A stretch of DNA of 64,000 bases, taken from IMG/VR virus record IMGVR_UViG_3300009060_000024. The stretch is one strand, 5' to 3'. The position numbers were made by a program, and so were the translations under genes. Positions within the stretch are counted from its first letter, which is position 1. Each line of letters begins with the position of its first letter. Below the pieces are notes generated by a model. The model worked only from the letters and a program-made list of their open reading frames with translations, searched no databases and was not told where the DNA came from. The stretch is from an uncultured virus (IMG/VR IMGVR_UViG_3300009060_000024). Taxonomy: Duplodnaviria; Heunggongvirae; Uroviricota; Caudoviricetes. Shown piece by piece: positions 1 through 16,184 of this stretch.

Positions 1-2
1 AA

Positions 3-73
3 TGCACCAGCAGAGATTCGAACTCTGGAAGCGAGCTTGGAAGGCTCGAATGATACCACTTCATCACTGGTGC
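3..73 (-). tRNA. tRNA-Gly(TCC)
   Basis: Cloverleaf GCACCAG/CTGGTGC-A; anticodon arm CGAGC-CT TCC AA-GCTCG; T-loop TTCGAAT; no encoded CCA. Confidence 0.95.
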
Positions 74-175
74 TTAATGGTGGGTTAGGCCCACCAATCC
101 TGTGACACTCAACCACGTCTGTATTTGGCACACAGCGCGGATGTATTTATGTCATCGCGCCCATTGTGGCGCTAA

Positions 176-247
176 TGGGTCCACTGGGACTCGAACCCAG
201 AACCACTCGGTTATGAGCCGAGGGCTCTACCATTGAGCTATGGACCC
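176..247 (-). tRNA. tRNA with CAT anticodon, probably Ile2 (agmatidine type), possibly Met
   Basis: GGGTCCA/TGGACCC-A acceptor; CTCGG-CT CAT AA-CCGAG; GGG-start acceptor resembles archaeal tRNA-Ile2. Confidence 0.85.
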
Positions 248-320
248 TCTCTGTGCCCACACGCCGTCGTTATCACGTTAGTGCGCGCGGGTAATAAATA
301 TAACGGCGCGGATGTGTTGT

Positions 321-548
321 CTATCGAGTTCTAGCTCGATGCCAGCCTTCTTCCATACCTCTTAGTAGAAGATACATCTCCTTTGAACCGTTACATACAG
401 GGCCAACTGGAGTTATACCATCATCATGTTCGTTTTCAAACAGTCTGTACTTTGATTCTCCCCATGACTCTAGTTCATAGCTTGAGTCATTGCTTTCGTT
501 TATCTCGTCAAGCTTATCTACTATATCAGTCTTACTCAGTCTTGACAT
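321..548 (-). CDS. hypothetical acidic protein
   Basis: 75-aa ORF in tightly packed minus-strand operon. Confidence 0.7.
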   Translation of the reverse strand: MSRLSKTDIVDKLDEINESNDSSYELESWGESKYRLFENEHDDGITPVGPVCNGSKEMYLLLRGMEEGWHRARTR

Positions 549-551
549 ATT

Positions 552-935
552 TTATTCTAAGTTATTCTGTGTGTGGCATTGTTCAACTCTATCATGGAGC
601 ATGTCTGTTGCTACATCTTCCAGGTCCATTCCTGTGTTGTCAGAAATGTTGTTCGCCTCTTTTACAGCCAAATCCTCCATATCTATCTTGTCTAAGTCTC
701 CCTCCTCGCAGTAGAACGGAACCTCAATATTAATGTTAACTAGACAGCTAGAAACATACCAACTCTTACGCCCGTCATCGAAGTCTACCTTCTCCTCTAG
801 ATTAGCTAACGTTTCATCATCAGCCCAGTATTTTGCGTGCGTAGACAGAATGTATTTCTTCTTTTCTATCTCATCGTAGTTTTCTGGTTGCAGATCTTCT
901 GCCCATTTTGTCTCCTCTATATCATCAAGTGTCAT
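552..935 (-). CDS. hypothetical acidic protein
   Basis: 127-aa D/E-rich ORF, operon packing. Confidence 0.75.
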   Translation of the reverse strand: MTLDDIEETKWAEDLQPENYDEIEKKKYILSTHAKYWADDETLANLEEKVDFDDGRKSWYVSSCLVNINIEVPFYCEEGDLDKIDMEDLAVKEANNISDNTGMDLEDVATDMLHDRVEQCHTQNNLE

Positions 936-938
936 TGT

Positions 939-2447
939 CTAGTGCGTCTCCAAGCTAACGTCGCCATTAATGAGTTTGTATCTGTACTCCCCCGCGTTCT
1001 TACTGTACTTCCAGTAACTCTGCCTGAAAGCCATGTTATGGCTAACACCAGTTCGGGTACTGCCGTCATGAGCTGCCATCTCGATGCATTTATCTAGTGC
1101 AACGCAAATGAACTCATCCTTTCGCATGTTGAGGGTTGACTTGTCGATGTATACAGTGTTGGTGTTGTCCTTCCACACCCTCTCGGTTTTACTGTATCCA
1201 GCGCTCACACTCCCATCGAACCCAATCTCCCGAAGGAACCATCGGGCACGTTCGAGGTTTTTAACACGTTTTTTGGTCAGTTCATTGGTGCTGAGTGGAC
1301 GCATCTCCCACTTCATCTCTTGGTCGATTACATCCTCCATGCTGTATATGGAAGAGCTGTCAATAAGGTTTTTGACAGCATCTTCAAAGCTAGAGTCTAT
1401 TACTATGACCCCAGCCTCGTCCATCGCCTTGTCAGACATTTTGTTTTGTTTCATCTGGAAGGAAATCTTTTCATCCTTCAACTGTTCGATGCTCCACTCA
1501 TCCCCGGTAACGTCGGGAATGATCTCCTTGGACCCGAACTTCTCAAGAGCCCTGTCGTCTCCCTTTATGCTATCCAGAGTCCAGTTAACCTCGCGGCGAG
1601 TGAGATCGTCTTTGTCAAACAGATGGTCAAGTGTTAGGCCATCGATCTCTTGCTTGATGGTCTTGTAAACTATGCACGTATCGAGTATGTCGTTGCGTGC
1701 AAAGTTGACATCTAGGTCTTTCTTACTGACAACATTGGTTCGAGTTGCAGTAAGCTTCTCATCAGTTACGTATGCTCCTAGGTTATAGATGCTGGTATGG
1801 AAACGCCATGCATCATTAACCCCAATGCTGTAGTATGCGTTTTCAGTCTCGTAGTTGTAATCGAACTCCTCGTACAGTTCTTCTCCGTTTAGAGTGAGTT
1901 CAATGTCATGGAGCCACGGGATGTACTTTACCAACTTCTTCACCTCATTAACTGTGTGTTGAAGGCCGTCAATGAGATTGTACAGTTCTACCTCGATTGA
2001 ACATCCGTCGAACTCATCGGATGTGTTTAGGACGTTGTAAGACAGTCCAGAACTGTCTAGTTCATGAGTGTCTCCATCAACATTCACCACGGTGTGGTTG
2101 TTGTCGAGATCGACAACGAGAATGTTGTTTTTCGTGTGCCAGATGTTCTTTCCAAAGTTGAAAATCTGGCCACGTCCCATTCGGAACTTCCCGAACTCTT
2201 TATCTTCAATGTCGGAGTCCTTAAGTCCGAACTTCTGGAAGTAGTTTTCTATGTCCTCCTCGGACATTCCCTTGCCGTCATCTTCAACGACGACAGCATC
2301 GGTCTTGATGGAAACATCAACCTTTGACGCTCCGGCGTCAACGGAGTTCATTACAGCTTCAAGAACTGCCTTTTCTACGGTTCCAGCCTGCTTACGCATT
2401 ACGTCGTTTAGCAGACCTTCTGTTGCCTCGAATTGTCGTTTTGGCAT
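939..2447 (-). CDS. GHKL (Hsp90/MORC-like) ATPase
   Basis: EAVMNSVDAGA (N box), EDDGKGM (G1), GKFRMG (G2). Confidence 0.85.
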   Translation of the reverse strand: MPKRQFEATEGLLNDVMRKQAGTVEKAVLEAVMNSVDAGASKVDVSIKTDAVVVEDDGKGMSEEDIENYFQKFGLKDSDIEDKEFGKFRMGRGQIFNFGKNIWHTKNNILVVDLDNNHTVVNVDGDTHELDSSGLSYNVLNTSDEFDGCSIEVELYNLIDGLQHTVNEVKKLVKYIPWLHDIELTLNGEELYEEFDYNYETENAYYSIGVNDAWRFHTSIYNLGAYVTDEKLTATRTNVVSKKDLDVNFARNDILDTCIVYKTIKQEIDGLTLDHLFDKDDLTRREVNWTLDSIKGDDRALEKFGSKEIIPDVTGDEWSIEQLKDEKISFQMKQNKMSDKAMDEAGVIVIDSSFEDAVKNLIDSSSIYSMEDVIDQEMKWEMRPLSTNELTKKRVKNLERARWFLREIGFDGSVSAGYSKTERVWKDNTNTVYIDKSTLNMRKDEFICVALDKCIEMAAHDGSTRTGVSHNMAFRQSYWKYSKNAGEYRYKLINGDVSLETH

Positions 2448-2496
2448 TTGTGTTGCCTCCGGCGAGCAGTTGTGTATAAATATGCTTACTCAGGCA

Positions 2497-2536
2497 AACT
2501 CTCCTGAGGAGTCGAACCCCAGTACTCCAAAAGAGC
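2497..2536 (-). ncRNA. mini-tRNA element t1 (acceptor-like stem plus T arm)
   Basis: GCUCUU-UUGGAGUA-CUGGGG UUCGACU CCUCAG-GAGAGU. Confidence 0.65.
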
Positions 2537-2540
2537 ATTA

Positions 2541-2858
2541 TTAGAACATTGAATATACGTTGTGTGCAGTTACAATGATACCTATAATGAGTAACGTCAA
2601 AGGTATAACAGCAGAGTATCTGTCATCCATGATCCTCCATATAACTAGAAGGACGCCAATTATTAATATTTTGTCTAACAGTAGTCCGAACATTCCATAT
2701 CTGTGCATTAGCATTGCAGGGATTTGATTTCTCTCTGACAACCCCATGTAATGTATACCAGCATATGTGGTAGCCATATCTCCCAAACCGTAAACAGCCG
2801 AAGACACGACGACTATTTTTGTTTGGTTGTCGGATATTGATTTGGCAACTGTGTTCAT
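2541..2858 (-). CDS. small membrane protein (DUF5658-like)
   Basis: GLGDMATTYAG...ERN motif and 3 hydrophobic helices. Confidence 0.65.
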   Translation of the reverse strand: MNTVAKSISDNQTKIVVVSSAVYGLGDMATTYAGIHYMGLSERNQIPAMLMHRYGMFGLLLDKILIIGVLLVIWRIMDDRYSAVIPLTLLIIGIIVTAHNVYSMF

Positions 2859-3179
2859 GTTATGCTCATGGTAATGTACAACAGCAAAAACGCGATAATT
2901 GCAGACAGTACGATGTATGATACAACGATGAATTTGTTTACGGTCCTAATTCTCGACTGCATCTTTGTATCTTACAACGTTAACTAATTCGAGGTGCGAT
3001 CCACCTCCAAACTCGCCATTCATAGCATCTTCTGCATCCTGCTTCTGTTCCCATATGCTGTTTCCACTAGCGCTGGTAAGCATCCTGTTCAGATCTGTGT
3101 TAAGGATGCCGTAGTACACTCTACCACTCATGCGCACCATTCTTCCCGCACACTTCGCATTGCCTGGTCATTGTTTTAA

Positions 3180-3236
3180 CCTTGTTTCGCTGGCACCACC
3201 CAGCTCATCAGGCCGCTTTTGGCTACGGCGACAAAA
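3180..3236 (-). ncRNA. type III hammerhead ribozyme
   Basis: UUUU-GUC^-GCCGU agccaaaa GCGGC-CUGAUGA-GCUGG guggug CCAGC-GAAA-CAAGG; complete core and three stems. Confidence 0.92.
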
Positions 3237-3255
3237 ATGAGTCTTAGTACGTTAT

Positions 3256-3465
3256 TTATATAGTGCTGTCTTCACCTCGTTCATCAAGCTCATCTATTAT
3301 CTGCTCCTTCACTATTACATGCCACACGCTGGCCCTTTGATTTCTCATCAATTTGTTTTGGTCTATGAAATCATCTATCTGTTGCAAATAGTTTCTAAGG
3401 TCATCTGTTTCATGGTCTTCGATCTCTTTATCGTCTATCTTATTTGGTGGCTGTATAGTTGTCAT
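3256..3465 (-). CDS. hypothetical protein
   Basis: 69-aa acidic ORF. Confidence 0.65.
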   Translation of the reverse strand: MTTIQPPNKIDDKEIEDHETDDLRNYLQQIDDFIDQNKLMRNQRASVWHVIVKEQIIDELDERGEDSTI

Positions 3466-3488
3466 ATATACTTTGTTTTTGTTGGTTG

Positions 3489-3746
3489 TTAGATGTACTT
3501 GAATGGGTCTTTGTCCGTGTTGTTCAGTATGTCCTTGAGATGTCTTGCGTCTAGTTCATCTGGATCGGTAGATCGGCTAAGGCTAACATCACCAGCTTTT
3601 TCTCCCCAGTTGCAAGTAGGGCAACCATCTCCACGCATGAACTTTTCGTATGCGTCTTCAGGTTGATCGTCCCACTCAGGAACTTCATGGTGCAGTGAAT
3701 ACACTCCATACGGTTCTCCGCATTTCTTACAGTGTACGTCAGGCAT
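3489..3746 (-). CDS. small Zn-binding protein
   Basis: CKKC and CPTC motifs. Confidence 0.7.
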   Translation of the reverse strand: MPDVHCKKCGEPYGVYSLHHEVPEWDDQPEDAYEKFMRGDGCPTCNWGEKAGDVSLSRSTDPDELDARHLKDILNNTDKDPFKYI

Positions 3747-3892
3747 TATTTACATCTCCTTGATGATGTCAGCGGCAGTGACTCCATCAATACGTTCCGC
3801 CATTCGCATTGCGGCCTCTCCAGAAGTTAGGTTACGGTCAGACTGAAGGCCCTTGGTGTGCTTTACAACTTCGTCAATATCAATGTTTTCAT

Positions 3893-4036
3893 TCATAGTA
3901 CAGTCAGTCCCACAGCAACCCCACACTCACGGCATTCATAAATCTGTTCACTTTCGTATGTTTTGTCGTCAATAAGACTGAAATCGGTGCTGTTACATTC
4001 TGGCGATGGGCATTGTAGGCAATGTATGTCTTTCAT
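3893..4036 (-). CDS. Zn-ribbon microprotein
   Basis: CPSPEC and CREC; start moved to MKDIH, downstream of element t2. Confidence 0.6.
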   Translation of the reverse strand: MKDIHCLQCPSPECNSTDFSLIDDKTYESEQIYECRECGVAVGLTVL

Positions 4037-4067
4037 CTGTGTTTGTGGCAGTAGGATGCCAGCCAAA

Positions 4068-4107
4068 TGCCATTGAGAGAATCGAACTCTCACTATACCA
4101 ATATGGC
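4068..4107 (-). ncRNA. mini-tRNA element t2
   Basis: GCCAU-AUUGGUAUAG-UGAGAG UUCGAUU CUCUCA-AUGGC-A. Confidence 0.8.
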
Positions 4108-4355
4108 TAGTGTTTAGTTTCCGCAGAGATGTAACGGAGGGTGACTAATGCCGATCTGATCCCGTCATGCTCGTACCCGTCCGAATGGACTATTGGATCG
4201 TGGTCGCACCCCTTTGACCAAAAGTCGTCAACAAATATTTGATCGCACTCAAAGCAATAGTATACGTCTGGGGTGGCGGCGGTCTTTCCTTTTTCTTCCT
4301 TCTGGCGTTCTAGCGCCTCTTCTAATCTCCTGATTGCGTGTGGTATATCGTTCAT
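4107..4355 (-). CDS. hypothetical Zn-binding protein
   Basis: CFEC...CDH. Confidence 0.65.
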   Translation of the reverse strand: MNDIPHAIRRLEEALERQKEEKGKTAATPDVYYCFECDQIFVDDFWSKGCDHDPIVHSDGYEHDGIRSALVTLRYISAETKH

Positions 4356-5415
4356 TTATCTGATCCTCCCGTCTGAGGGCGACATCCACCAGCAGCAGAC
4401 TGAGCAGAACGACGGGTCCCTCCCATGAACGCAACGCTTCTTCGTGTCGTTCCGGACAATGGTTCGTTTCACTTCGCTCACGAGTCTCCCTCCTGCGAGG
4501 CGTCCGCAGAGGCTGAGAGTCGCTCAAACCGGATTGAACGAAGCTTGCGATATATCCAACCTTGAGGAGTGTGCATCAATGTGTAATGCTTGAACCATTC
4601 CCACTGGCAAATGAGAGCGTGTTCGCTCACCATCGACCACCCACAGTGACACGTTATCCGAAATCCGATTTCTGCCGACCTTGGGAGTCCGAAAATCCAC
4701 TCTTCCCCTCCTTGTTCAGTATCATTCGTCATCAATACTCATCAAATTTTACCCTGTGTTCGTTTCCATCTCTATCCGTCCACACCAAAACGCCCCCGCT
4801 AAGATCACCGAGACGTAGAGGTCTTTGTTCAGTTCTACCCATCTACTTCACCTCAGATTGTTTAGTTTCCGCTTCTGCTTCACTCACCAATTTCCAATCA
4901 ATAGAGTACGATACCCGATTTTTCAACATTAGTTGCTTAAGGGCTACACGTCCCCTGCGCCCAAATTCCTTAACAACCCTATCCTGCTCAACGGGTTCGT
5001 TATCTATTATAAATTGTTCAACTTCGTCCATCGGTCCATCGCCTCCTTCACGCTCATTTGTCCATATGTCCATTGTGTCCTGTAAGAGTTTCATAATCGC
5101 CGCACATCCATGCAAGGATGCGTTCAGCCTCCTCCTCGTCTTCCCGACGAAGAGATTCGGCTATGTAATGCTCTATGCTTGGATATGGTCTCTGTGTCAT
5201 TCCTACAAGGTCTTCGTTTCGTTTCATGTGTAATATCTACTCTTATCTAACGTCGTTCATCATGAACGATCCTACCATAGACAAAAAACACATGGAACAC
5301 AACACTATAGCAGCATCAACTCCATAATTAAAATACGAATACAATCCAATGATTGTTATACCGAACAGTGCAAATGTAGGACCAAATGCGTTAGGGTTAA
5401 CTATCGGTTCTGGTG

Positions 5416-5739
5416 TCATTTGTTCATCTCTGCTTCTTTGTATGTCTCAAGCCACTCTTTAGCGTCGTCATAGTTATTTCTTGCGGTGATGATTTTACCA
5501 TCGCTCCAAATATCACTGTTGACGCATTTCCAAACGTCATCTTCATTACGCTCTATACTTATTACGCATGTGTCAAACTCCACTATTTCAGCTTTTATTT
5601 GAGGAGTTTGTTTGCCTCTGTCCATGTAAGTGGCTATTGGACAGTCGTTATTAGAGCAATAATGCTGTTTTGGAGCCAGATCATGTGACACTTCTCCCTC
5701 TTCTTGATTGCACAGTGGACAATTAGTTTTAATCACCAT
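5416..5739 (-). CDS. hypothetical protein with N-terminal Zn finger
   Basis: CPLC...CSNNDC. Confidence 0.65.
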   Translation of the reverse strand: MVIKTNCPLCNQEEGEVSHDLAPKQHYCSNNDCPIATYMDRGKQTPQIKAEIVEFDTCVISIERNEDDVWKCVNSDIWSDGKIITARNNYDDAKEWLETYKEAEMNK

Positions 5740-5745
5740 TCTTAA

Positions 5746-5787
5746 TGCCCATCTCCAGAATTGAACTGGAGTTATACCAATATGGGT
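5746..5787 (-). ncRNA. mini-tRNA element t3
   Basis: CCCAU-AUUGGUAUAA-CUCCAG UUCAAUU CUGGAG-AUGGG. Confidence 0.8.
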
Positions 5788-6623
5788 CAGTCTTCGTGAG
5801 GGACAGGTGTTATTCCCTCACTTGTATTATGATCTCTGCTAATGTGTATAAGAACACGTTTTAGAGCGTCGCTTCTGTCACACTCATCATCATACATAAA
5901 GTACACTCCGCATTTGTCACATTTGTATCCATCGACCTTAAACATCGTTGTCCAAAAGATCGACTGCTACACTTTTAGACATGGATTCAATGCCATCAGC
6001 TATGTCTTCATCTCCAGCAACACTAAGGAAAACCTTAGCAGCAGTCATGCATTTGAACGCTTCCATTCTAAGATCGTATATCTCCTGATCTCTCTTTGAT
6101 TCGGTTTCGTCTTTTTCCATGTTGTTTTTGGTATGTTTGTCGTATAGGCACGTGCAGGCGTCGTGTGCCGTTTTGTGTACACAGGTACAAAGACACTTGT
6201 ATATGTCTACGCGGCCTGTGTGGGCTTGTGTGTCGGTGTATCGGGGCTTCGGGACTGCCGACCCCGGTTAGATGTAATTCCTCACGTTGTAGCTTGGACC
6301 TGTGCCAGTCAAAGCAGTGCCCAGATCGATGCCACAACCCTCGCAATTGTCAGTCAGTTCATCTCCGTGAGCGGGTTCGTTGTCAAACCCGCAAAATCTA
6401 CACTTCATTGTCATTGTGTGGTTACACTCCCCATGAAGGGTGCCATTACGTAGTGCTGATCATGAGCGAAGTTAGAATGCTCTATTGCGTCTTCCATTGC
6501 CTCTTTGTCGAGGTCATAATCTTCGTACATGAACTTTTCTTGGCAGCCTGTGCAGATGAAGCCTTTGTATTTAGACATCTTTTCTAACAGTATAACGTGT
6601 GTTGCTTTGTCATTTGTTTCTCC

Positions 6624-6676
6624 GCCTTTTAGCGTTACCCAGCCAGCACCACGAGGAGGTAAGGCTCTTGCTGGCC
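6624..6676 (-). ncRNA. HDV-like self-cleaving ribozyme (minimal) A
   Basis: P1 GGCCAGC/GCUGGCU (G1-U), P2 GCCUU/AAGGC, P3 ACC/GGU, L3 UCCUCGU, P1.1 CC/GG, J4/2 CUAA. Confidence 0.92.
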
Positions 6677-6779
6677 ATAAACTATGTTCGTTATGTGTTA
6701 GTGAGGAGTTCTATAAGCATTATTATGAACCCTGCTAACATCATCACCAATACAATTTCGATTAATATGCAACACATCT

Positions 6780-7289
6780 CTACATAGTCTCAATATTGTC
6801 TATTGAAGTTTCCCATATTGGAACAGCTGCATACCCATTGCCTCTAACGCTTACATCGAAGCGCAGGGCAAGGTACTTATCATCTCTCACATTGAAACCC
6901 TCCCTCTTTTTTGCCATCCTCTTGTACTTACGTTTGACATGATCACTCTGTAGTATGTTGGTTTTCCCAGACTCTAATCCGGGGCCAAATATCAGTCCGA
7001 ATTGGCATGGCCGAAGTTTACCTGTGACTTTGTACTTCTTTGATGTGTATTGTGGAGATTTTTCCGTAACCTCAGCCTCAAATGGAACTCCTTCTGCATC
7101 CATTTTCTTTGACTGAGTGTATGTCTTGTTAGCTCTTGGAGTTCTATCAACTGCCTTTTCAATTGACCTCGCAATCGTTTCGTATTTGTACACTTTCTCC
7201 GCTTTAGTGTACGGAGACTCCAAGAACCTTACTCTGTACTTCTTTTTTGTACCAAGCGTGTAGTACGCTATTTTATCTGACAATGACAT
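6780..7289 (-). CDS. hypothetical basic protein
   Basis: 169-aa K/R-rich ORF. Confidence 0.7.
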   Translation of the reverse strand: MSLSDKIAYYTLGTKKKYRVRFLESPYTKAEKVYKYETIARSIEKAVDRTPRANKTYTQSKKMDAEGVPFEAEVTEKSPQYTSKKYKVTGKLRPCQFGLIFGPGLESGKTNILQSDHVKRKYKRMAKKREGFNVRDDKYLALRFDVSVRGNGYAAVPIWETSIDNIETM

Positions 7290-7291
7290 TT

Positions 7292-7744
7292 TCAGTCTTC
7301 GATCATTGGTTGCATGATTTCATTCCATGTGTCTCCATCGGTGCTTACTTGGTTTATAGGAGCTCCAACTCTACCACACAACCATTTAAACGCCGCTGAC
7401 GAGTCGCTTATCTGGTACTTGTCATGCTGATACGTGTATAAATGTACCATCTCATGCAACAAAGTCATCTTTATCCGATCATCCTGTTCGCACTCTAGGT
7501 ACGATTGGGAGAATCTGAGAAAGGTATACTTCCCACCATCTCGGTAAAAAGCCTTTGCATTAGCGCGTTTTATGCGTGATGAAACTTCGATGAAGTCACA
7601 TTTAATCTCCTCGGGGAACTTTTGTTCGAGATCATCAAACCATTCGTTAAGTTTGTCTTCCCACTTTGAGTGAGGGTAAGTTCTGTACGGATGGTTCGCA
7701 CCGTTATTTTTGTCTGGAACTCCAGTTAAGTCGTGTATTCCCAT
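7292..7744 (-). CDS. SprT-like zinc metalloprotease
   Basis: TLLHEMVHLY motif preceded by a SprT-like beta region. Confidence 0.8.
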   Translation of the reverse strand: MGIHDLTGVPDKNNGANHPYRTYPHSKWEDKLNEWFDDLEQKFPEEIKCDFIEVSSRIKRANAKAFYRDGGKYTFLRFSQSYLECEQDDRIKMTLLHEMVHLYTYQHDKYQISDSSAAFKWLCGRVGAPINQVSTDGDTWNEIMQPMIED

Positions 7745-8538
7745 TATTGATTGATGATCATGGAGAAAACATCTTTTGCCTTCTCCAATTCACCGATTTG
7801 TACAAGGCCTGAAATGTAATCGAACAGTTCGTCTTCACCAGATAGTACAAGTGTTAACTCGACATGTTCAGACTCTCTGTCTTGCTGCTGTTCGTCTTCG
7901 TCGTCATCGTCTTGTTTGTTTATGATTCCTTGGTCAACAGCTTTTTCTATGATCTCGTCTGTGTCTGGCGTTTTCTTGAACCAGTTTTTGAGTTCGTCTT
8001 CGACAAATCTGTCATCTGTCATCCAACCCTTGGCCGTGATTGTACTTGAAACAGTTGAGTGACTCTCATACCCCATGTTATCAGCTATTGCTCTGTATGA
8101 CATGTCTGGGTTGTTGTAATGCCACGCGAGAGTCTCCTGCCTGTCTTCAGATAAGTCGCTGAAGGTTGTGACAGGTGGCCGTCCCATAAGAGTATAATGA
8201 ATGTCTTCATCCTGAAGGATTCTGACAACCTTGTCCTTTGACTCTCCTGAAAGATCGCAGACCTTATCAATCTCCTTGTTGGAGATGTCGGGTCCAAGAC
8301 CGTCCACGTTGCCAGACTGTATACGCTTGAACGCCTTAACGATCCTCATGTAATTGGACATTTCAGGATCGGAAGGTATGACATCTGGGTACACTCGCAT
8401 GATAAGGTCGTCTGTTGACCTCCCCCTGTGAGCAGAGTCGTTCATGCTGTTTATGTGCTGTACAATGCGCTTTCGGACACTTTTAGTCCTTCCACAAGCG
8501 CGGCACTGGTACTGTAACTCAGTCTCGTCTACTGTCAT
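7744..8538 (-). CDS. Zn-finger/HTH transcription regulator
   Basis: CRAC...H...H and SYRAIADNMGYESHSTVS HTH. Confidence 0.7.
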   Translation of the reverse strand: MTVDETELQYQCRACGRTKSVRKRIVQHINSMNDSAHRGRSTDDLIMRVYPDVIPSDPEMSNYMRIVKAFKRIQSGNVDGLGPDISNKEIDKVCDLSGESKDKVVRILQDEDIHYTLMGRPPVTTFSDLSEDRQETLAWHYNNPDMSYRAIADNMGYESHSTVSSTITAKGWMTDDRFVEDELKNWFKKTPDTDEIIEKAVDQGIINKQDDDDEDEQQQDRESEHVELTLVLSGEDELFDYISGLVQIGELEKAKDVFSMIINQ

Positions 8539-8800
8539 TGTTTTGTTCTACGGGTTCTGCTTCTGACTCTTCGTGTGTGTATGCGTTGAACAGTTTGTTT
8601 TGAGCCCCAACGCAAATGATGATAGAATCTCTTGCAAATTCTAACTCATCCCCGTATTCCTCATGTGGAAGGGTATTAATGGCACTTCTGTACTCCTCCA
8701 TCATGTTTTTATTCGACTGAATGAGTGCTATTAACTCATCCTCTGTTAGATTTACTTGATACGTCATTGTTTGATACCATCCTGTTTTCTGGATGGCTGA

Positions 8801-8860
8801 TGGCAGGTTAAGGGAGTTGAACCCATGTTATATGTCCCACCAAACTGGGTAACACCTGCT
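8801..8860 (-). ncRNA. tRNA-like element t4 lacking the anticodon arm
   Basis: GCAGGU/ACCUGC stem; D-like arm CCCA-GUUUGG-UGGG; T arm GGG-UUCAACU-CCC. Confidence 0.7.
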
Positions 8861-8890
8861 ATATAGATAACCGTTATGGCTGTGAGTTAT

Positions 8891-9247
8891 TTAATACTGA
8901 AACTCTAGAATATACTTGATCTTATCTGCTTCGTCGTAAAGCTGTCCTGTGACATCTCCTCGGATGTGGAGTTCTATCGTGTCGTCGCAACCACACTCCT
9001 TGATTTTATTCTCCCCGAAGTAACTCATCAACGCTCCATAAATCTCTAAAGGAGTGTCGCCTTGATACCGTTCAATTGCTTTGCATGACTCATCTATTTC
9101 GTCATACACAGACTGTTCGATGTCTCTGATCTCGTCCTCGCTTTCGTAGTCAGTGTCTTCAATATTTCCAATTGCTGACTTGGCTATCTCTCGACCAGCG
9201 CTGTATGCGGTATGCCGTATCTCGTTTGTGAATGGATTTTCTTTCAT
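8891..9247 (-). CDS. hypothetical acidic protein
   Basis: ORF; start MKENP follows element t5. Confidence 0.7.
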   Translation of the reverse strand: MKENPFTNEIRHTAYSAGREIAKSAIGNIEDTDYESEDEIRDIEQSVYDEIDESCKAIERYQGDTPLEIYGALMSYFGENKIKECGCDDTIELHIRGDVTGQLYDEADKIKYILEFQY

Positions 9248-9258
9248 TTTTACCCCAA

Positions 9259-9300
9259 TGACCATCCTGAGAATTGAACTCAGGCAATACCAGTATGGCT
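9259..9300 (-). ncRNA. mini-tRNA element t5
   Basis: GCCAU-ACUGGUAUUG-CCUGAG UUCAAUU CUCAGG-AUGGU. Confidence 0.8.
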
Positions 9301-9318
9301 AATTCTGTTATACCTGTG

Positions 9319-9723
9319 TCAGTAATGGCTGTGGAACGACTTGTATTCCTCAGTCATAACATCATTATACGCATCTTTGTCTATAGTATAGACAAGCCAC
9401 ACAGAAAACTCTTGCCCGTCCTTTGATTCCCTACTTTCCTCACCATACTCAACATGAGATACTCTACGAAGCTCTATCACACCATCTCGGGCGAGATGTT
9501 TTAGAACAACTGCGGGTTTCGTACTCCATGAAATGTTAGTATCAGCATCCATCCCATGTACTGTAGGGGTGAACTCATGCTTGTTTTCTTCGCGGCATCT
9601 AACATCTATCTGATGCCCAAATCCGTTTACTTCTGTTATCCCAAACTGACCATCTAGCCAGTTAGCCATCTTTTCTCCAACGCTCAATTCTTCTACCTCC
9701 ACTGTTTCTTGTTTATCTGCCAT
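9319..9723 (-). CDS. hypothetical protein
   Basis: ORF; start MADKQ follows element t6. Confidence 0.7.
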   Translation of the reverse strand: MADKQETVEVEELSVGEKMANWLDGQFGITEVNGFGHQIDVRCREENKHEFTPTVHGMDADTNISWSTKPAVVLKHLARDGVIELRRVSHVEYGEESRESKDGQEFSVWLVYTIDKDAYNDVMTEEYKSFHSHY

Positions 9724-9741
9724 TGTTGGGTTTTCGCCCGA

Positions 9742-9783
9742 TGCCCATGATAGGAATTGCACCCATTCGATTCTATTATGGGT
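9742..9783 (-). ncRNA. mini-tRNA element t6 (divergent)
   Basis: CCCAU...AUGGG UGCAAUU CCUAU-C-AUGGG. Confidence 0.6.
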
Positions 9784-9784
9784 A

Positions 9785-10132
9785 TTATGTTCTAGGTATA
9801 ACTAATTCATCGTAGAAAGACCAATCTATATCTTCCACTTCGTCATCTGCTCTCTCCTGTAGTTCTCTATGTTCACTTTCTGCCATTCCAATCGCGTCTA
9901 TTCCTCTTGTTCTAGCGTCAACAAAGAACTCCACCGCTTCTTGTAACATGGTAGAGTGGTAAACCATCTCATGTTCTTTGTCTAGTTCAATTTGTCTCTC
10001 TGTTAGTTCTTCGTCCGATTCGTCTAATTTAACTTGGTGGGTCTCTTCTGCTGTTTCGTCTGGGGGGTAGAATCTGTCCGCTGTCTTTGCTCTCTCCCAA
10101 CATAACCATTTTAGGAACTCGTGTTCGTTCAT
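9785..10132 (-). CDS. hypothetical acidic protein
   Basis: ORF; start MNEHE follows element t7 and a GCAA hairpin. Confidence 0.7.
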   Translation of the reverse strand: MNEHEFLKWLCWERAKTADRFYPPDETAEETHQVKLDESDEELTERQIELDKEHEMVYHSTMLQEAVEFFVDARTRGIDAIGMAESEHRELQERADDEVEDIDWSFYDELVIPRT

Positions 10133-10156
10133 TGTATTGCTGCCCTTGCGGGCGAG

Positions 10157-10199
10157 AGCCATATAGGGAATTGGACCCTATGCTAACACCAGTATGGCT
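10157..10199 (-). ncRNA. mini-tRNA element t7
   Basis: AGCCAU-ACUGGUGUUAGC-AUAGGG UCCAAUU CCCUAU-AUGGCU. Confidence 0.75.
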
Positions 10200-10202
10200 A
10201 AG

Positions 10203-10276
10203 TGCGACAGGTGGGATTTGAACCCACAACCTCAGCCTTATAAGGACTGCACTCTACCTAGTTGAGTTACTGTCGC
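10203..10276 (-). tRNA. tRNA-Ile(TAT)
   Basis: GCGACAG/CTGTCGC-A; CAGTC-CT TAT AA-GGCTG; T-loop TTCAAAT. Confidence 0.9.
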
Positions 10277-11210
10277 CCGAAGATTGTTATTATTCTATTC
10301 TGTCTTATTGCTGGACCCCATTATTTGAGTTGTCTTTGATGCATGGCTTACACGTCCACCAATCTTTACCGCATGACTCGCATGCATCAAATGGAACTCC
10401 GTCAAAATTTGAAACAACTGTGTTACCGCAATGGTGACACTCCCATTTATATTTAACTACATTCGACATAGCTTGCACCTCTTATTACTCCCGTCCAGTT
10501 CTCTTGCTAATGGTACACCACACTTCTCACAGTGTTCTCCCGTTAGCGTGTACTTCTGTGTTATCATTGTTCTGGATTGGTTAGTAAGCTCCTTATGTAT
10601 GACGAAGTTACATCATGACAGTTAACACTCCATGGTTCTTGCATTTGACCTCCATGTTTGTTTTGGTTGTGACTACACCTCCGTCAATCTCAGTTGATCT
10701 GACGGGGAACTCGCTTTTTATTAACTCGTTACCACAGTACGGACAGTATCTGAAGTCGCAAACTCCAGATATTTGTGTGCGTTTATCTGATGACATCTTA
10801 ACGAACCCTCGTAGCCGATTCGATAGCAATTCTCGACAGCGTGATTGATGCTGGAACGCAGAACAGAATCGAAATTGCCATCATCATCATTACAACTGAC
10901 CCGCCGCCAATAACCCTAAGGATGTCAGCGATTATTATTGAAGCTGTTATTACAGGCGCAAGCCCTCCGAAGCTTCCATCTGACATTGGGTTTATCTCCG
11001 TAAGCAGAGGGTATGATGACAGTATCAGTATGTATGCGTTAAACATCAACTGTTCTGCCAGTTGCATTGTCTATCGTGTATAGGTGTTAGTTTTGCCGTG
11101 TTTGGGGCAGATGAACTTTTCTCCCTTTCGGATGCAACGGGCCTCGCAGTTGTTACAGTATCGTGCGCTGTACTCCAGGTCGTTTCCGAACTCCTCTAGG
11201 TCTACCATTG

Positions 11211-11405
11211 TTATAGCTTGAGTTTGGTGATCGAAGCTTCGTCGTCGTCCTCTGCCATCGAAACAATGAGTTCGTACAGGCTCATTGGAAGGTCCGCCTC
11301 TCGGTAGTAGTTACCGCTTTCTGTAACTTCCCCGTGTCCTTCTTTCTCGACACGTTTTTCAGCCTCTTCCTTGTCCGTCTCGAACTCAATTCCTATGGTT
11401 GTCAT
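11211..11405 (-). CDS. hypothetical protein
   Basis: 64-aa acidic ORF directly downstream of ribozyme B. Confidence 0.7.
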   Translation of the reverse strand: MTTIGIEFETDKEEAEKRVEKEGHGEVTESGNYYREADLPMSLYELIVSMAEDDDEASITKLKL

Positions 11406-11416
11406 TCGTGCAGTTG

Positions 11417-11471
11417 ACCTCGTTCAGTGTTAACCGAGGGAAGCTCTGGGAGCTAAGAGGTTACAACCCTC
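11417..11471 (-). ncRNA. HDV-like ribozyme B (variant)
   Basis: P1 GAGGG/CCCUC, P2 ACCUC/GAGGU, P3 AGC/GCU, L3 UCCCAGA, GG, UUAACA, CUGAAC. Confidence 0.7.
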
Positions 11472-11518
11472 GTGTACGTATAATTGTCGCCTGCGCGCAC
11501 AAACGGCGCGCTACCCCT

Positions 11519-11531
11519 TAAATATAACGGC
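11519..11531 (-). promoter_or_regulatory. viral promoter-like motif GCCGTTATATTTA
   Basis: Identical 13-mer also at ~295-307 (-); similar GTCGTTATATTTAAA at ~59545-59559 (-); TATA-like. Confidence 0.55.
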
Positions 11532-11774
11532 ACTGATCGAACAGTTACACGCTGCCTTGTCGTATGTCCTCCTGGGTTAAAACCTCTCCCCCGACTCTCA
11601 CAGCATTGACATCCATGTTTTGTATGGCCGTTTTTTCTGGTCCGTTGTCCATGCTGCTGATCATTTGTTCGTATGCAACTCTTGAATTTGGCCCGTTGCC
11701 AAATCCTATCATGAGGTCCATTCCCTCATCTTCTCCATCGTTTTCGACTGTGTAAAACAGGTACTTAGACATGT

Positions 11775-12062
11775 CTACCCATCCTGATCCTCAGGAATTA
11801 CAGATGCCCACTCGCTGATTTGGAACTCCACCTCTCTCTTTCCACGGGGTGTGAGTGTGTACTCGTTAGACCTTGCATCCTTCTCGGACTTGTCAACGAG
11901 TGACATTTTGACGAGTTCGTCGAGGTTAGGATATAGCCTCCCGTTATTAATCTTGCTCTCGTAGTAATGCTCCAGTTCATCAGCAATCTCCAGTCCGTTA
12001 GGACTGTTTAGCTTTGCGATTGTTCTGATGCAGTCTCGTTGGAATCCGGTTAAGTCGTGCAT
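11775..12062 (-). CDS. PadR-family wHTH regulator (haloarchaeal type)
   Basis: MHDLTGFQRD...GRLYPNLDELV...NEYTLTPRG. Confidence 0.9.
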   Translation of the reverse strand: MHDLTGFQRDCIRTIAKLNSPNGLEIADELEHYYESKINNGRLYPNLDELVKMSLVDKSEKDARSNEYTLTPRGKREVEFQISEWASVIPEDQDG

Positions 12063-12322
12063 TAGAGGTAGTGTTCTTTTGCAGCAGCGTATCCCTTTGC
12101 GAATTGGGGAACGTACTCAAGTGAGCCATCTTCCGTGTAGTTGGCATCTTGAGCTTGCTCTACCACGGTTTCACTGTTCACATCGTACACGCTAAAAACG
12201 TGAAACACGACGTGATCTCGATACTTGAACTCGTGTTCATACACCTCCACATCGGGATTAAAAACGTCCCAGAGTGACGTGTGTACGTTGAGCATTGGTT
12301 GCTCAAATGGTGCGTCGTTCAT
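12062..12322 (-). CDS. hypothetical protein
   Basis: Start MNDAP just downstream of ribozyme C. Confidence 0.7.
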   Translation of the reverse strand: MNDAPFEQPMLNVHTSLWDVFNPDVEVYEHEFKYRDHVVFHVFSVYDVNSETVVEQAQDANYTEDGSLEYVPQFAKGYAAAKEHYL

Positions 12323-12330
12323 TGTGTGCA

Positions 12331-12386
12331 ACTGCATCTTAGTGTTAACCAGAGCCTACCACGAGGAGGTGTGCAGTGCAGGCTCC
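12331..12386 (-). ncRNA. HDV-like ribozyme C
   Basis: P1 GGAGCCU/AGGCUCU, P2 ACUGCA/UGCAGU, P3 ACC/GGU, L3 UCCUCGU, GG, UUAACA, CUAAGA. Confidence 0.9.
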
Positions 12387-12403
12387 GTAAAGAAAGAGTG
12401 TGT

Positions 12404-12661
12404 TTAATCGAACAGGTTGGAACTTTCACACAGTTTAGTGATAGAAACGTTTGACTCCTGCCTTTCATCGCATTTGGTACACCGCCTGAGTATACACTCA
12501 CCGTGATCACGTCTTACAGTACTGTAACTCCATTCGTGCCCGTGTGACGAGCATGGGGGGTGTACTACGACTTCATCTCGTAGACTGTTTTTAAGAGTGA
12601 CATCCTCTCCGCTTTGTAGTTTTTCAAGCTGTTCCTCCGAAATGGTGTATTTGTGTTTCAT
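12404..12661 (-). CDS. hypothetical Zn-binding protein
   Basis: C...GHEW...CTKC. Confidence 0.6.
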   Translation of the reverse strand: MKHKYTISEEQLEKLQSGEDVTLKNSLRDEVVVHPPCSSHGHEWSYSTVRRDHGECILRRCTKCDERQESNVSITKLCESSNLFD

Positions 12662-12677
12662 TGTTTGTTGTGGGTAT

Positions 12678-12947
12678 TCAGCAACTGAACATCGTTCTTC
12701 CCTCTGCGTCGTGGACGAACATAATGTCAGACTCGCATGCCCACTCGAAGTAACCGGGGATGTCACCTCCGATGATGGAGAACACTCTTTCCCCATGATC
12801 GTTGTCGTGATGGTACACTATCTGAGTAACCTCCTCATATGTATACCATTCTGCTTCAGCTCCCCAGTTGTTATCGAGATGTCTGATTCCTACTCGCATG
12901 TACGAATCGTTCCACGGAATGCTGTCAGGCAGTTGGTTTGCTCTCAT
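12678..12947 (-). CDS. hypothetical protein
   Basis: Start MRANQ just downstream of ribozyme D. Confidence 0.65.
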   Translation of the reverse strand: MRANQLPDSIPWNDSYMRVGIRHLDNNWGAEAEWYTYEEVTQIVYHHDNDHGERVFSIIGGDIPGYFEWACESDIMFVHDAEGRTMFSC

Positions 12948-12958
12948 GTGTGCAGTTC

Positions 12959-13010
12959 CCACGTTCAGCGAATCACTCCCAGCTCTTGAAGCTAAGTGGT
13001 ACTAAGGAGC
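12959..13010 (-). ncRNA. HDV-like ribozyme D (variant)
   Basis: P1 GCUCCU/GGGAGU (G1-U), P2 CCAC/GUGG, P3 AGC/GCU, L3 UUCAAGA with compensatory P1.1 UC/GA, UUCG, CUGAAC. Confidence 0.75.
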
Positions 13011-13030
13011 GTGTGATCGTATCGTGTGCG

Positions 13031-13564
13031 TTACATCAGTCCAGAGTCAACCAGTTCTTTAGTAGTGTGATCGTCGCAGACTCTCCTGTGATTTATCTTC
13101 ACCCAGTCTCCAGTTATTATATGGAGGTCTTCTCCACACACTGGGCAGTTTCTGTACATCGATGGCTGGTCATTTCTCCCATGCTGGTTTGCAGCTTTGT
13201 CTATCGCTCGGAGAGCGTTCCTTGGAGATTCGTTAAGTAGAGTGAACAGATCCATGTCAAGCTCTGCCTTGACAAGCCACTTTGTGTAAGCGACATCTTG
13301 ATCTGTCATCCAGTAGCGTTCGAGATTCTCCGTCTGGTACTTTTTCTTCCATCTGGAGTTCTTTTTCTTTTTCTCATAGACGACTGCAACATCGTCTTGA
13401 GCGTCGACCCCGAACACTAACTCTCCATTCTTCTCGTAAACAGATAATCTGGGTATTCGTTCTTCGGTCTTTGGGTAGGCACTCGAACTGCTTGAGGTTT
13501 TGCCACCATTCTTGACCTGCCGTTGAATATCCTCAGATTGATCTGCGAGATCTTTAATGTTCAT
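13031..13564 (-). CDS. hypothetical protein with C-terminal Zn finger
   Basis: CPVC...CDDH. Confidence 0.75.
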   Translation of the reverse strand: MNIKDLADQSEDIQRQVKNGGKTSSSSSAYPKTEERIPRLSVYEKNGELVFGVDAQDDVAVVYEKKKKNSRWKKKYQTENLERYWMTDQDVAYTKWLVKAELDMDLFTLLNESPRNALRAIDKAANQHGRNDQPSMYRNCPVCGEDLHIITGDWVKINHRRVCDDHTTKELVDSGLM

Positions 13565-13576
13565 CGTGCATCGGTT

Positions 13577-13635
13577 TGTGTCCTACGTTTGGTTGATCCA
13601 GCACCAGCTCGGGGAGCTAAGTAGGCACAGGCACC
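13577..13635 (-). ncRNA. HDV-like ribozyme E (variant)
   Basis: P1 GGUGCC/GGUGCU, P2 CCUAC/GUAGG, P3 AGC/GCU, L3 UCCCCGA, GG, CCAAAC. Confidence 0.7.
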
Positions 13636-13781
13636 GTATAATAATGGCACTAAACCCTACTGGTTTTCTGTAGGGATTAGTACCAGTCGGTATCGTATCG
13701 AATACCCACTACTTCTTCAGTCTCGTCATCGAGTTCCCAGACTGCTCTGTCAGTGGGGTGCGATCCGGTTTGGCTCATCGT

Positions 13782-14318: not shown

Positions 14319-14324
14319 TGTGCT

Positions 14325-14855: not shown

Positions 14856-14875
14856 TTAACAGAACGAGCGCTCGA

Positions 14876-14889
14876 AACTTAAAGCTTTC
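14876..14889 (-). promoter_or_regulatory. haloarchaeal-type promoter (BRE/TATA) GAAAGCTTTAAGTT
   Basis: Purine-rich BRE plus TTTAAG, ~25 nt upstream of the first hairpin of the structured RNA. Confidence 0.65.
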
Positions 14890-16147: not shown

Positions 16148-16184
16148 GGATACATTTATTACTTTGTGTGGCATAAACTTTTCT

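What the first reader, a model, noticed from the sequence alone, without database searches (positions are those of the whole stretch)
3180..3236. Complete type III hammerhead ribozyme in an intergenic spacer
Seen: GUC cleavage triplet, stem I GCCGU/GCGGC, core CUGAUGA, stem II GCUGG/CCAGC, GAAA and stem III UUUUGU/ACAAGG. Loop I (agCCAaaa) and loop II (gUGGug) are complementary, as expected for the tertiary contact of fast natural hammerheads. It lies 20 nt past a stop codon and just before small ORFs. Predicted cut is between 3230 and 3229.
Basis: partly seen in the sequence, partly recalled or inferred. Interest (0 to 1): 0.75.

Follow-up and report, generated by a model that had tools for sequence, protein, structure and literature searches.

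The report
Hammerhead ribozyme between small archaeal genes
A complete, strongly conserved self-cutting hammerhead RNA lies between two small genes of an uncultured salt-loving nano-archaeon, beside ribozymes of a second class placed the same way, so it most likely cuts a multi-gene transcript into separate messages.

Summary
The minus strand at 3236..3180 carries a full type III hammerhead: GUC site, CUGAUGA, GAAA, G10.1-C11.1, A15.1-U16.1, and stems of 5, 5 and 6 bp. The cut is predicted between 3230 and 3229.

Rfam Hammerhead_3 scores only 28.2 bits against a gathering cut-off of 48.5. The whole-window scans miss it. A strict descriptor matched 0 of 400 shuffled windows.

The strongest evidence is conservation. 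A metagenome contig, L001, has a neighbouring ATPase 76% identical in protein. It carries the same 55 nt at 100% identity, while flanking genes are 70-87% identical in DNA. A different small ORF is inserted on each side of the element. There is no covariation and no RNA evidence.

The host is a Nanohaloarchaeota-like genome. The same gene array holds two minimal HDV-like ribozymes (6676..6624 and 12386..12330). Relatives in three other loci have compensatory P1 and P2 changes. In 10 of 11 placements, including both hammerheads, the ribozyme lies 16-26 nt after a stop codon. All 11 lie close to the next ATG.

Best reading: an intercistronic mRNA-processing ribozyme, and a new member of a known kind. 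Saltern and halovirus hammerheads were described in 2011.

The parts
3180..3236 (-). Complete type III hammerhead ribozyme (57 nt). The 55-nt block 3182-3236 is identical in locus L001.
   Evidence: Sequence. Rfam RF00008 scores 28.2 bits over model positions 1-54 of 54. Descriptor scans. Shuffles. blastn: 100% over 55 nt.
3229..3230 (-). Predicted scissile bond, 3' of C17 (3230) and 5' of G1.1 (3229). The GUC triplet is 3232-3230.
   Evidence: Follows from the hammerhead numbering applied to the sequence and the Rfam alignment. It has not been tested experimentally.
3212..3229 (-). Stem I (GCCGU/GCGGC, 5 bp including a closing U.G) with the 8-nt loop I AGCCAAAA.
   Evidence: Present in the minimum-free-energy fold. 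Sequence.
3205..3211 (-). Catalytic core strand C3-A9, CUGAUGA.
3189..3204 (-). Stem II (GCUGG/CCAGC, 5 bp, starting with G10.1-C11.1) with the 6-nt loop II GUGGUG.
   Evidence: Present in the minimum-free-energy fold. Sequence.
3180..3188 (-). G12 A13 A14, followed by the stem III 3' strand ACAAGG. That strand pairs with UUUUGU at 3236-3231.
   Evidence: In L001 stem III is only 4 contiguous bp.
3256..3465 (-). Upstream co-oriented 69-aa ORF. It is present in the window but absent from L001 and from a variant contig of run X1. Its stop codon ends 19 nt before the ribozyme.
   Evidence: One search shows a joint 3236->3477 that skips 240 nt.
3121..3171 (-). First downstream ORF, 16 codons. Its ATG lies 8 nt after the ribozyme and its stop overlaps the start of the next gene.
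   Evidence: Whether it is actually coding was not shown.
2946..3131 (-). Downstream small gene (about 61 aa from the ATG at 3131). It is homologous to the 58-aa ORF at L001 1039-1215.
   Evidence: blastn 70%. blastp 60% over 58 aa.
3489..3746 (-). Conserved 85-aa zinc-finger ORF. In L001 it directly precedes the hammerhead.
   Evidence: 93% aa identity to L001 and 73-78% to L004, L006, L008 and L009.
6624..6676 (-). Minimal HDV-like ribozyme no. 1 in the same gene array (context element).
   Evidence: RF00094 scores 40.6 bits against a cut-off of 50. 7-bp P1 and 5-bp P2. Model R1.
12330..12386 (-). Minimal HDV-like ribozyme no. 2 in the same gene array (context element).
   Evidence: RF02682 scores 30.5 bits against a cut-off of 44. 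7-bp P1 and 6-bp P2.

Best explanation
The element is a genuine cis-acting type III hammerhead ribozyme. It is encoded on the minus strand of a Nanohaloarchaeota-like genome, inside a long array of co-oriented small genes.

Proposed mechanism:
1. When the array is transcribed as a polycistronic RNA, the hammerhead folds. Stems I and II form as local hairpins. A weak stem III is formed by the U-rich 5' flank and ACAAGG.
2. The RNA cuts itself after C17, between 3230 and 3229.
3. The upstream cistron is released with a 2',3'-cyclic phosphate.
4. The downstream cistrons keep a 5'-OH end. That end carries most of the folded ribozyme, placed 8 nt (window) or 4 nt (L001) before the next start codon.
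5. The short, weak stem III lets the products part.

The effect is to uncouple the fate of neighbouring messages and give the downstream message a defined, structured 5' end.

What is shown: the sequence anatomy, the improbability of a chance match, the perfect conservation, and the stop-ribozyme-start placement shared with HDV-like ribozymes in the same array.

What is inferred: transcription through the site, cleavage itself, and the consequence for mRNA stability or translation.
For: (1) All invariant hammerhead positions and the three-helix junction are present.

(2) The strict descriptor matched 0 of 400 shuffles and the relaxed one 9 of 400. The relaxed type I/III scan over the window plus 80 loci, about 0.6 Mb on both strands, found only this site and its L001 homologue.

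(3) L001 carries the same 55 nt at 100% identity. Surrounding alignable DNA is 87%, 83%, 77% and 70% identical. At the best flank identity, 0.87^55 is about 5e-4. Both loops are conserved as well.

(4) The flanks are rearranged around an unchanged element. There is a 69-aa ORF upstream only in the window and a 68-aa ORF downstream only in L001. A variant contig in run X1 shows the L001-type junction exactly at 3236.

(5) All neighbouring ORFs from about 321 to 16198 run on the same strand.

(6) The same array holds two HDV-like ribozymes. Relatives in L006, L007 and L008 all have a 7-bp P1 and a 5-8 bp P2 of different sequence. In 10 of 11 ribozyme placements tabulated, including both hammerheads, the ribozyme lies 16-26 nt after a stop codon. 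The first ATG lies from 8 nt inside the 3' end to 11 nt after it in all 11. In 8 of 11 an ORF of at least 30 aa starts within 12 nt. A type III hammerhead, like an HDV-like ribozyme, cuts near its own 5' end, so both leave the ribozyme on the downstream RNA.

(7) There is precedent. Perreault et al. 2011 (PMC3088659, passages read) describe saltern hammerheads. They also describe one in haloviruses HF1 and HF2 that lies 13 nt before a start codon, with a transcript 5' end mapped within 3 nt of the cut site.
Against: - The Rfam score is below the curated cut-off: 28.2 bits here and 29.7 bits in L001, against 48.5.
- The hit does not survive the filters in larger searches.
- Only two copies are known and they are identical, so no base pair is supported by covariation. 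One recent transfer of the 55-nt piece could mimic selection.
- The fold is no more stable than shuffles: z = -0.58, and 53 of 200 shuffles fold at least as well.
- The loop-loop pairing is not significant.
- Stem III is weak. In L001 it is interrupted after 4 bp.
- A run of five T lies just 5' of the cut site (3237-3233). From general knowledge of archaeal transcription, not tested here, such a run could terminate transcripts before the ribozyme is made. A TATA-like box at 3262-3253 could also start transcripts near the cut site, which would leave the ribozyme without its stem III 5' strand.
- Syntenic loci L004, L006, L008 and L009 have no hammerhead after the conserved 85-aa ORF.
Confidence: 0.72

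Rival explanations
1. The 55-nt block is conserved for a DNA-level reason and its likeness to a hammerhead is incidental. Possible reasons are a recombination or cassette-junction site, a protein-binding site, or a promoter or terminator region. No RNA cleavage would occur.
For: Whole small ORFs are gained or lost directly at both edges of the block. A T5 run and a TATA-like box lie immediately upstream. There is no covariation, no RNA evidence, and the Rfam score is below the cut-off.
Against: A DNA site has no reason to carry every invariant hammerhead nucleotide in the right order together with three helices. The strict descriptor matched 0 of 400 shuffles. The same positional niche is filled elsewhere by HDV-like ribozymes with compensatory changes, which points to an RNA-level function for that niche.
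Confidence: 0.1
2. The hammerhead is active but serves RNA circularisation or the mobility of an RNA or gene cassette, not mRNA punctuation. For example, the segment between an upstream HDV-like cut (about 6676) and the hammerhead cut (3230) would carry 5'-OH and 2',3'-cyclic phosphate ends. An archaeal RtcB-type ligase could join such ends. The ligase point is general knowledge and was not tested here.
For: There are several self-cleaving ribozymes on one strand. ORF content differs next to the ribozyme.
Against: There is only one hammerhead in 64 kb. The repeat finder was not run, so no flanking repeat or second matching ribozyme marks out a unit. No reverse transcriptase appeared among the 30 larger proteins scanned against Pfam or the 35 scanned against PHROGs. 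The nearest integrase, at 24389-25303, is 21 kb away. No circular junction data exist.
Confidence: 0.08
3. The hammerhead is a conditional switch. Cleavage, or the release of the stem III 3' strand AAGG (a weak Shine-Dalgarno-like stretch 8 nt before the ATG), would respond to salt, Mg2+ or a factor, and so would tune translation of the downstream ORFs.
For: The stem III 3' strand overlaps AAGGU just upstream of the ATG at 3171. Perreault et al. 2011 raised salt-dependent control for saltern hammerheads (passages read).
Against: The core is fully consensus, whereas the salt-dependent saltern variants have core insertions. L001 has no AAGG at that place. No aptamer-like extension is present.
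Confidence: 0.1

Closest known systems
Hammerhead ribozyme, type III (Rfam RF00008, clan CL00010)
   Same: The core is CUGAUGA ... GAAA, with a GUC cleavage triplet, G10.1-C11.1 and A15.1-U16.1. Stems I and II are capped by loops and stem III is open.
   Different: The score is 28.2 bits, below the family's 48.5-bit gathering cut-off. The stems and loops are unlike the model consensus. The element sits in an archaeal gene array, not in a viroid, satellite or repeat element.
Saltern and halovirus hammerheads: HHmeta, and HHphage of HF1/HF2 (Perreault et al. 2011, PMC3088659; passages read)
   Same: Hypersaline archaeal setting. The ribozyme lies a few nucleotides before a start codon at the head of downstream cistrons. 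The paper also notes one saltern example with a typical consensus core.
   Different: HHmeta and HHphage carry a short insertion next to C3. This element has none (the scan allowing insertions of 0-2 nt placed it at 0). The host lineage here is Nanohaloarchaeota-like and not a haloarchaeal tailed virus. Strings from this element were not found in the 11 supplementary files held for that paper. Gapped alignments there could hide a match.
Bacterial and prophage hammerheads that flank genes (Perreault et al. 2011)
   Same: Intercistronic placement beside small genes of unknown function. Several ribozymes lie in one gene block.
   Different: Those are mostly type II or type I and sit near integrases. 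Here a type III hammerhead shares the block with HDV-like ribozymes. The 53 IMG/VR contigs with the same stem II letters appear, by eye, to be mostly type I and are unrelated elsewhere.
Minimal HDV-like ribozymes: the F. prausnitzii type (RF02682) and the theta ribozymes of gut phages (PMC10879173; abstract and passages read)
   Same: The neighbouring elements at 6676..6624 and 12386..12330 have a 7-bp P1, a 3-bp P3 with a C-rich L3, GG for P1.1, a vestigial P4 and CUAA before the P2 3' strand. They occupy the same stop-ribozyme-start niche as the hammerhead.
   Different: This is a different fold and catalytic core from the hammerhead. These copies are not next to tRNAs, and they are in an archaeal lineage.

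Membership tests
Hammerhead ribozyme (type III) | Invariant core C3 U4 G5 A6 N7 G8 A9 and G12 A13 A14 | tested here: met
   CUGAUGA at 3211-3205 and GAA at 3188-3186.
Hammerhead ribozyme (type III) | A15.1-U16.1 pair and a cleavage-site nucleotide H17 that is not G | tested here: met
   A3185 pairs with U3231, and C3230 is position 17 (GUC triplet).
Hammerhead ribozyme (type III) | Three helices around the core, with stems I and II closed by loops and stem III open | tested here: met
   Stems of 5, 5 and 6 bp. Stems I and II appear in the minimum-free-energy fold.
Hammerhead ribozyme (type III) | Score at or above Rfam's gathering threshold for RF00008 | tested here: not met
   28.2 bits in the window and 29.7 bits in L001, against 48.5. 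The element is not listed in the larger scans. This is a curated score cut-off, not a structural feature.
Hammerhead ribozyme (type III) | [quoted passage not shown] | tested here: inconclusive
   A 4-bp GCCA/UGGU pairing is possible at -4.1 kcal/mol, but about 20% of random loop pairs do as well. Both loops are identical in L001.
Hammerhead ribozyme (type III) | Helices supported by compensatory changes among homologues | tested here: inconclusive
   Only two copies were found and they are identical in stems I and II. In stem III one G.U becomes A-U and one G.U becomes U-U.
Hammerhead ribozyme (type III) | Site-specific self-cleavage that gives 2',3'-cyclic phosphate and 5'-OH ends | not testable with these tools
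   This needs an in vitro cleavage assay or end-specific RNA sequencing.
Saltern variant hammerheads (HHmeta/HHphage type) | Short insertion in the core next to C3 and stem I | tested here: not met
   Stem I abuts C3 directly. The feature is as described in PMC3088659.
HDV-like ribozyme (neighbouring elements, not the finding itself) | Nested double pseudoknot: 7-bp P1, P2, 3-bp P3 with a C-rich L3, GG for P1.1, and C in J4/2 | tested here: met
   All 5 of 5 copies (window 6676 and 12386; L006, L007, L008) have a full P1 and a 5-8 bp P2 of different sequence. Rfam scores of 30.5-41 bits are below the cut-offs of 44 and 50.

The most novel reading that the evidence does not exclude
Nanohaloarchaeota-like genomes use two unrelated self-cleaving ribozyme classes, hammerhead and minimal HDV-like, as interchangeable 'stop-ribozyme-start' punctuation in long arrays of very small genes. 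Each cistron would then become its own message, with a 5'-OH end capped by the ribozyme. The conserved ribozyme modules would also mark the points where small-gene cassettes are gained and lost.

As far as I recall, HDV-like ribozymes have not been described in Archaea. I could not confirm this from a paper, because the two reviews I tried are not held.
Probability: 0.3. Interest if true: 0.7.

Novelty: new member of a known kind. Interest (0 to 1): 0.5.

Why it matters
Hammerheads are known in all domains of life, but their cellular roles outside viroids and repeat elements are mostly unproven.

Here the genomic logic is unusually clear. The ribozyme is perfectly conserved between diverged genomes and is wedged between a stop codon and a start codon. 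In neighbouring and syntenic intercistronic gaps its place is taken by a ribozyme of another class.

This makes the idea of ribozymes as operon punctuation directly testable in a DPANN archaeon that accumulates salt in its cytoplasm, where even Mg-poor, high-monovalent-ion catalysis is plausible. It also gives a starting set (one descriptor and model R1) for surveying ribozymes in Nanohaloarchaeota.

Tried and rejected
- **Whole genome:** none is held for this window.
- **GTDB relatives:** they could not be searched because no locus maps to a held genome.
- **Genome contigs:** scans with the ATPase and with the Mrp protein found no relatives.
- **'phages' collection:**
  - No DNA match for 2000-5000 or for the 71-nt element.
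  - Only 25% protein matches for the ATPase.
- **IMG/VR (viral contigs):**
  - No exact match to the 33-nt stem I/core string.
  - No match to a pattern that keeps the loops and core but frees the stems.
  - No relatives of the ATPase or of the 69-aa ORF.
  - Two contigs with relatives of the 85-aa ORF (L134, L135). They have no hammerhead or R1 match; the best RF00008 score was 11.7 bits.
  - 53 contigs share the stem II letters. By eye they appear to be mostly type I hammerheads, and they are otherwise unrelated.
- **Rfam at E<=1 over 11 related loci (68 kb):** nothing was listed, not even the L001 hammerhead. A blank at that search size therefore means little.
- **Type II hammerhead scan:** nothing in the window, and two weak hits in L034.
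- **Sequencing runs:** no RNA holder was listed, so transcription and RNA ends could not be examined. Run X2 holds only small identical pieces.
- **Virus hallmarks:** PHROGs gave only matches to families of unknown function or weak ones for 35 proteins, so virus versus chromosome was not settled by that route.
- **Earlier notes of this scan:** nothing by place, sequence or words.
- **Literature:**
  - No paper holds both 'hammerhead' and 'nanohaloarchae'.
  - Two reviews on HDV-like ribozymes are not held.
  - Four papers searched for 'archaea' and the theta-ribozyme paper say nothing on HDV-like ribozymes in archaea.
- **Idea considered and dropped:** the conserved stretch at 10457-10567 might be an RNA. 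Its third-position variation shows that it is a 35-aa zinc-ribbon ORF.

Full report
**1. What is there**

Read on the minus strand, 3236..3180 is:
UUUUGU-C / GCCGU-AGCCAAAA-GCGGC / CUGAUGA / GCUGG-GUGGUG-CCAGC / GAA-ACAAGG.

This is a textbook type III hammerhead:
- GUC triplet with C17 at 3230.
- Stem I of 5 bp and stem II of 5 bp, the latter starting with G10.1-C11.1.
- Core strands CUGAUGA and GAA.
- An A15.1-U16.1 pair that opens a 6-bp stem III. Two of its pairs are G.U.

**2. Is it more than chance?**

- Rfam's default scan of the window lists only ten tRNA matches.
- The permissive whole-window scan also omits the site.
- A 221-nt scan gives Hammerhead_3 at 28.2 bits over the full model, with E = 2.5e-4. 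The curated cut-off is 48.5.
- The core pattern occurs once, against 0.05 expected.
- My three-stem descriptor matches 9 of 400 dinucleotide shuffles in relaxed form and 0 of 400 in strict form.
- The relaxed scan over the window plus 80 fetched loci found only this site and one homologue.
- The fold is not unusually stable (z = -0.58).
- The loop I/loop II pairing (4 bp) is matched by about 20% of random loop pairs. Neither of these last two points adds weight.

At the scale of a scan over very many windows, the score alone would not be decisive. Conservation is what decides.

**3. Conservation**

The downstream 502-aa GHKL-type ATPase (2447..939; Pfam HATPase_c_3) has many metagenomic relatives. 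An alignment of 48 of them retrieved 80 metagenome loci.

L001 has an ATPase 76% identical in protein. It holds the same hammerhead at 777-831: 55 of 55 nt are identical. Flanking alignable DNA is 87%, 83%, 77% and 70% identical. Rfam gives 29.7 bits there.

The surroundings differ between the two genomes:
- In L001 the conserved 85-aa zinc-finger ORF ends 16 nt before the ribozyme.
- In the window an extra 69-aa ORF (3465..3256) lies between them.
- After the ribozyme, L001 has an extra 68-aa ORF. The window has only a 16-codon ORF before the shared 58-64-aa gene.
- Contigs of a DNA run that probably includes the source sample show the L001-type junction exactly at 3236.

So a discrete 55-nt module, loops included, is held constant while whole small ORFs come and go on both sides.

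There are limits to this evidence. Only two copies exist and they are identical, so there is no covariation. Stem III is weaker in L001 (4 bp, then a U-U). More distant syntenic loci (L004, L006, L008, L009) have no hammerhead after the 85-aa ORF.

**4. Host and setting**

The proteins are strikingly acidic. The ATPase is 40% identical to a protein of Candidatus Nanosalina sp. J07AB43. The Mrp-type ATPase at 50438-51679 is 59% identical to one from a 'Candidatus Nanohaloarchaea archaeon' MAG. The window also encodes:
- two UbiA prenyltransferases, a subtilase and glycosyltransferases;
- an integrase and an MCM-like ATPase;
- nine to ten tRNAs.

No virus hallmark was detected. I read the window as a Nanohaloarchaeota-like chromosome. 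A mobile island at 0.3-16 kb is not excluded. Every plausible gene from about 321 to 16198 is on the minus strand, so the hammerhead is in the sense orientation.

**5. Other ribozymes in the same array**

The permissive Rfam scan also flagged HDV-like matches on the minus strand at 6606-6678 (40.6 bits) and 12330-12386 (30.5 bits). A simple descriptor then found the same kind of element in L006, L007 and L008. Rfam scores there are 41, 32.5 and 34.5 bits.

All five share ACCUCCYCGUGGU, and after P1 they share GG(G/U)UAAC(G/A)-CUAA. Their 7-bp P1 and 5-8-bp P2 helices have five different sequences, and all are fully paired. That is the compensatory pattern expected of a real minimal HDV-like ribozyme.

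A model built from them (R1) also picks up weaker elements:
- a divergent form 10 nt before the ATPase start codon in L006, L008 and L009;
- a possible one at window 11475..11412.

**6. Shared placement**

I tabulated 11 ribozyme placements: 2 hammerhead, 5 clear HDV-like and 4 weaker ones.
- In 10 of 11 the ribozyme begins 16-26 nt after the stop codon of a co-oriented ORF of at least 30 aa. The exception, the doubtful 11475 element, lies 69 nt after one.
- In all 11 the first ATG lies from 8 nt inside the ribozyme's 3' end to 11 nt after it.
- In 8 of 11 an ORF of at least 30 aa starts within 12 nt.

A type III hammerhead cuts seven or so nucleotides from its 5' edge, and an HDV-like ribozyme cuts at its 5' edge. 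In both cases the downstream message keeps the folded ribozyme as its leader. This equivalence is my main reason to assign the hammerhead an intercistronic processing role.

**7. Mechanism and its status**

- Shown: the anatomy, the non-random occurrence, the conservation and the placement.
- Inferred: read-through transcription, cleavage after C3230, release of the 7-nt-paired upstream product, and a 5'-OH, ribozyme-led downstream mRNA.
- Open: a T5 run (3237-3233) and a TATA-like box (3262-3253) just upstream might end or start transcripts there. This would change how often the full ribozyme is made.

**8. What is known already**

Perreault et al. 2011 (PMC3088659; passages read) report:
- at least three archaeal hammerheads;
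- several hammerheads from saltern viral metagenomes, one of them with a consensus core;
- a variant in haloviruses HF1 and HF2 that lies 13 nt before a helicase start codon, with a mapped 5' end within 3 nt of the cut;
- pseudoknotted loop contacts in about 40% of hammerheads;
- frequent weak stems III.

A later halovirus paper still lists that hammerhead's function as open (PMC7230728, one passage). No paper in the library pairs 'hammerhead' with 'nanohaloarchae'. Strings of this element are absent from the 11 held supplements of the 2011 paper, with the caveat that gapped alignments could hide them.

The finding is therefore a new member of a known kind. The added value is its context.

**9. 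Verdict**

- This is a real hammerhead candidate of good quality. I put the chance that it is a functional ribozyme at about 0.8.
- The reading as intercistronic processing, taken as a whole, gets 0.72.
- Interest is 0.5. A hammerhead in a halophilic archaeon is not surprising in itself. The perfectly conserved module, and its apparent interchangeability with a covarying HDV-like family in a DPANN lineage, is worth a bench test and a survey.

Noticed in passing
window 6624-6676 (-) and 12330-12386 (-): Two minimal HDV-like ribozymes on the same strand as the hammerhead. Each has a 7-bp P1, a 3-bp P3 with L3 UCCUCGU, GG for P1.1, almost no P4, and CUAA before the P2 3' strand. Their Rfam scores are below the cut-offs (40.6 and 30.5 bits).
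   Followed up: yes
L006:2034-2093, L007:884-944, L008:2639-2698 (+): Homologous HDV-like ribozymes in related Nanohaloarchaeota-like contigs. Their P1 and P2 sequences are different but fully paired. Each lies 22-25 nt after a stop codon and close to the next ATG.
   Followed up: yes
L006:4933-4994, L008:4933-4994, L009:1318-1379 (+): A divergent HDV-like element scoring 15-20 bits with model R1: P1 CCCUCAC/GUGAGGG, L3 UUGCCGU, CUAA. It lies 10 nt before the start codon of the GHKL ATPase. It starts with C instead of the usual G, so it is uncertain.
   Followed up: partly
window 11412-11475 (-): A weak R1 match (14.3 bits) with possible P1 CGAGGG/CCCUCG, P2 ACCUC/GAGGU and GGUUAACACUGAA. It lies 6 nt before the ATG of a 64-aa ORF. 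It may be a third, divergent HDV-like ribozyme.
   Followed up: partly
window 2448-2531 (-) and L001:1666-1750: An approximately 85-nt block just upstream of the ATPase start codon is nearly identical in the two genomes. It contains a tRNA T-arm-like GGTTCGACTCC and a TTTATA box. It could be a promoter region, an old attachment site, or a decayed copy of the HDV-like element seen at this place in L006, L008 and L009.
   Followed up: no
window 62156-62268 (-): A 113-nt match to the tRNA model (30.4 bits, just above the cut-off) that ARAGORN does not call. It may be an intron-bearing archaeal tRNA. It sits at the end of a run of seven tRNA genes at 60.8-62.2 kb.
   Followed up: no
window 10457-10567 (-) and L004, L006-L009, L011, L013, L014: A roughly 35-aa zinc-ribbon ORF conserved at 62-74% identity. 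In the other loci it sits just upstream of the ATPase, but in the window it lies about 8 kb away. Its third-position variation shows that it is coding and not an RNA.
   Followed up: partly
L081-L133 (IMG/VR): 53 viral contigs carry a hammerhead core with the same stem II letters (GCUGG/CCAGC), nearly all with a 7-nt loop. By eye, most have a hairpin stem III after GAAAC, which is the type I layout. They form a separate phage hammerhead group.
   Followed up: partly
window 1-16200: A long one-strand array of very small, acidic ORFs, often with CxxC motifs. It also holds a SprT-like protein (7292-7744) and a GHKL ATPase. Small ORFs are gained and lost between close relatives.
   Followed up: partly
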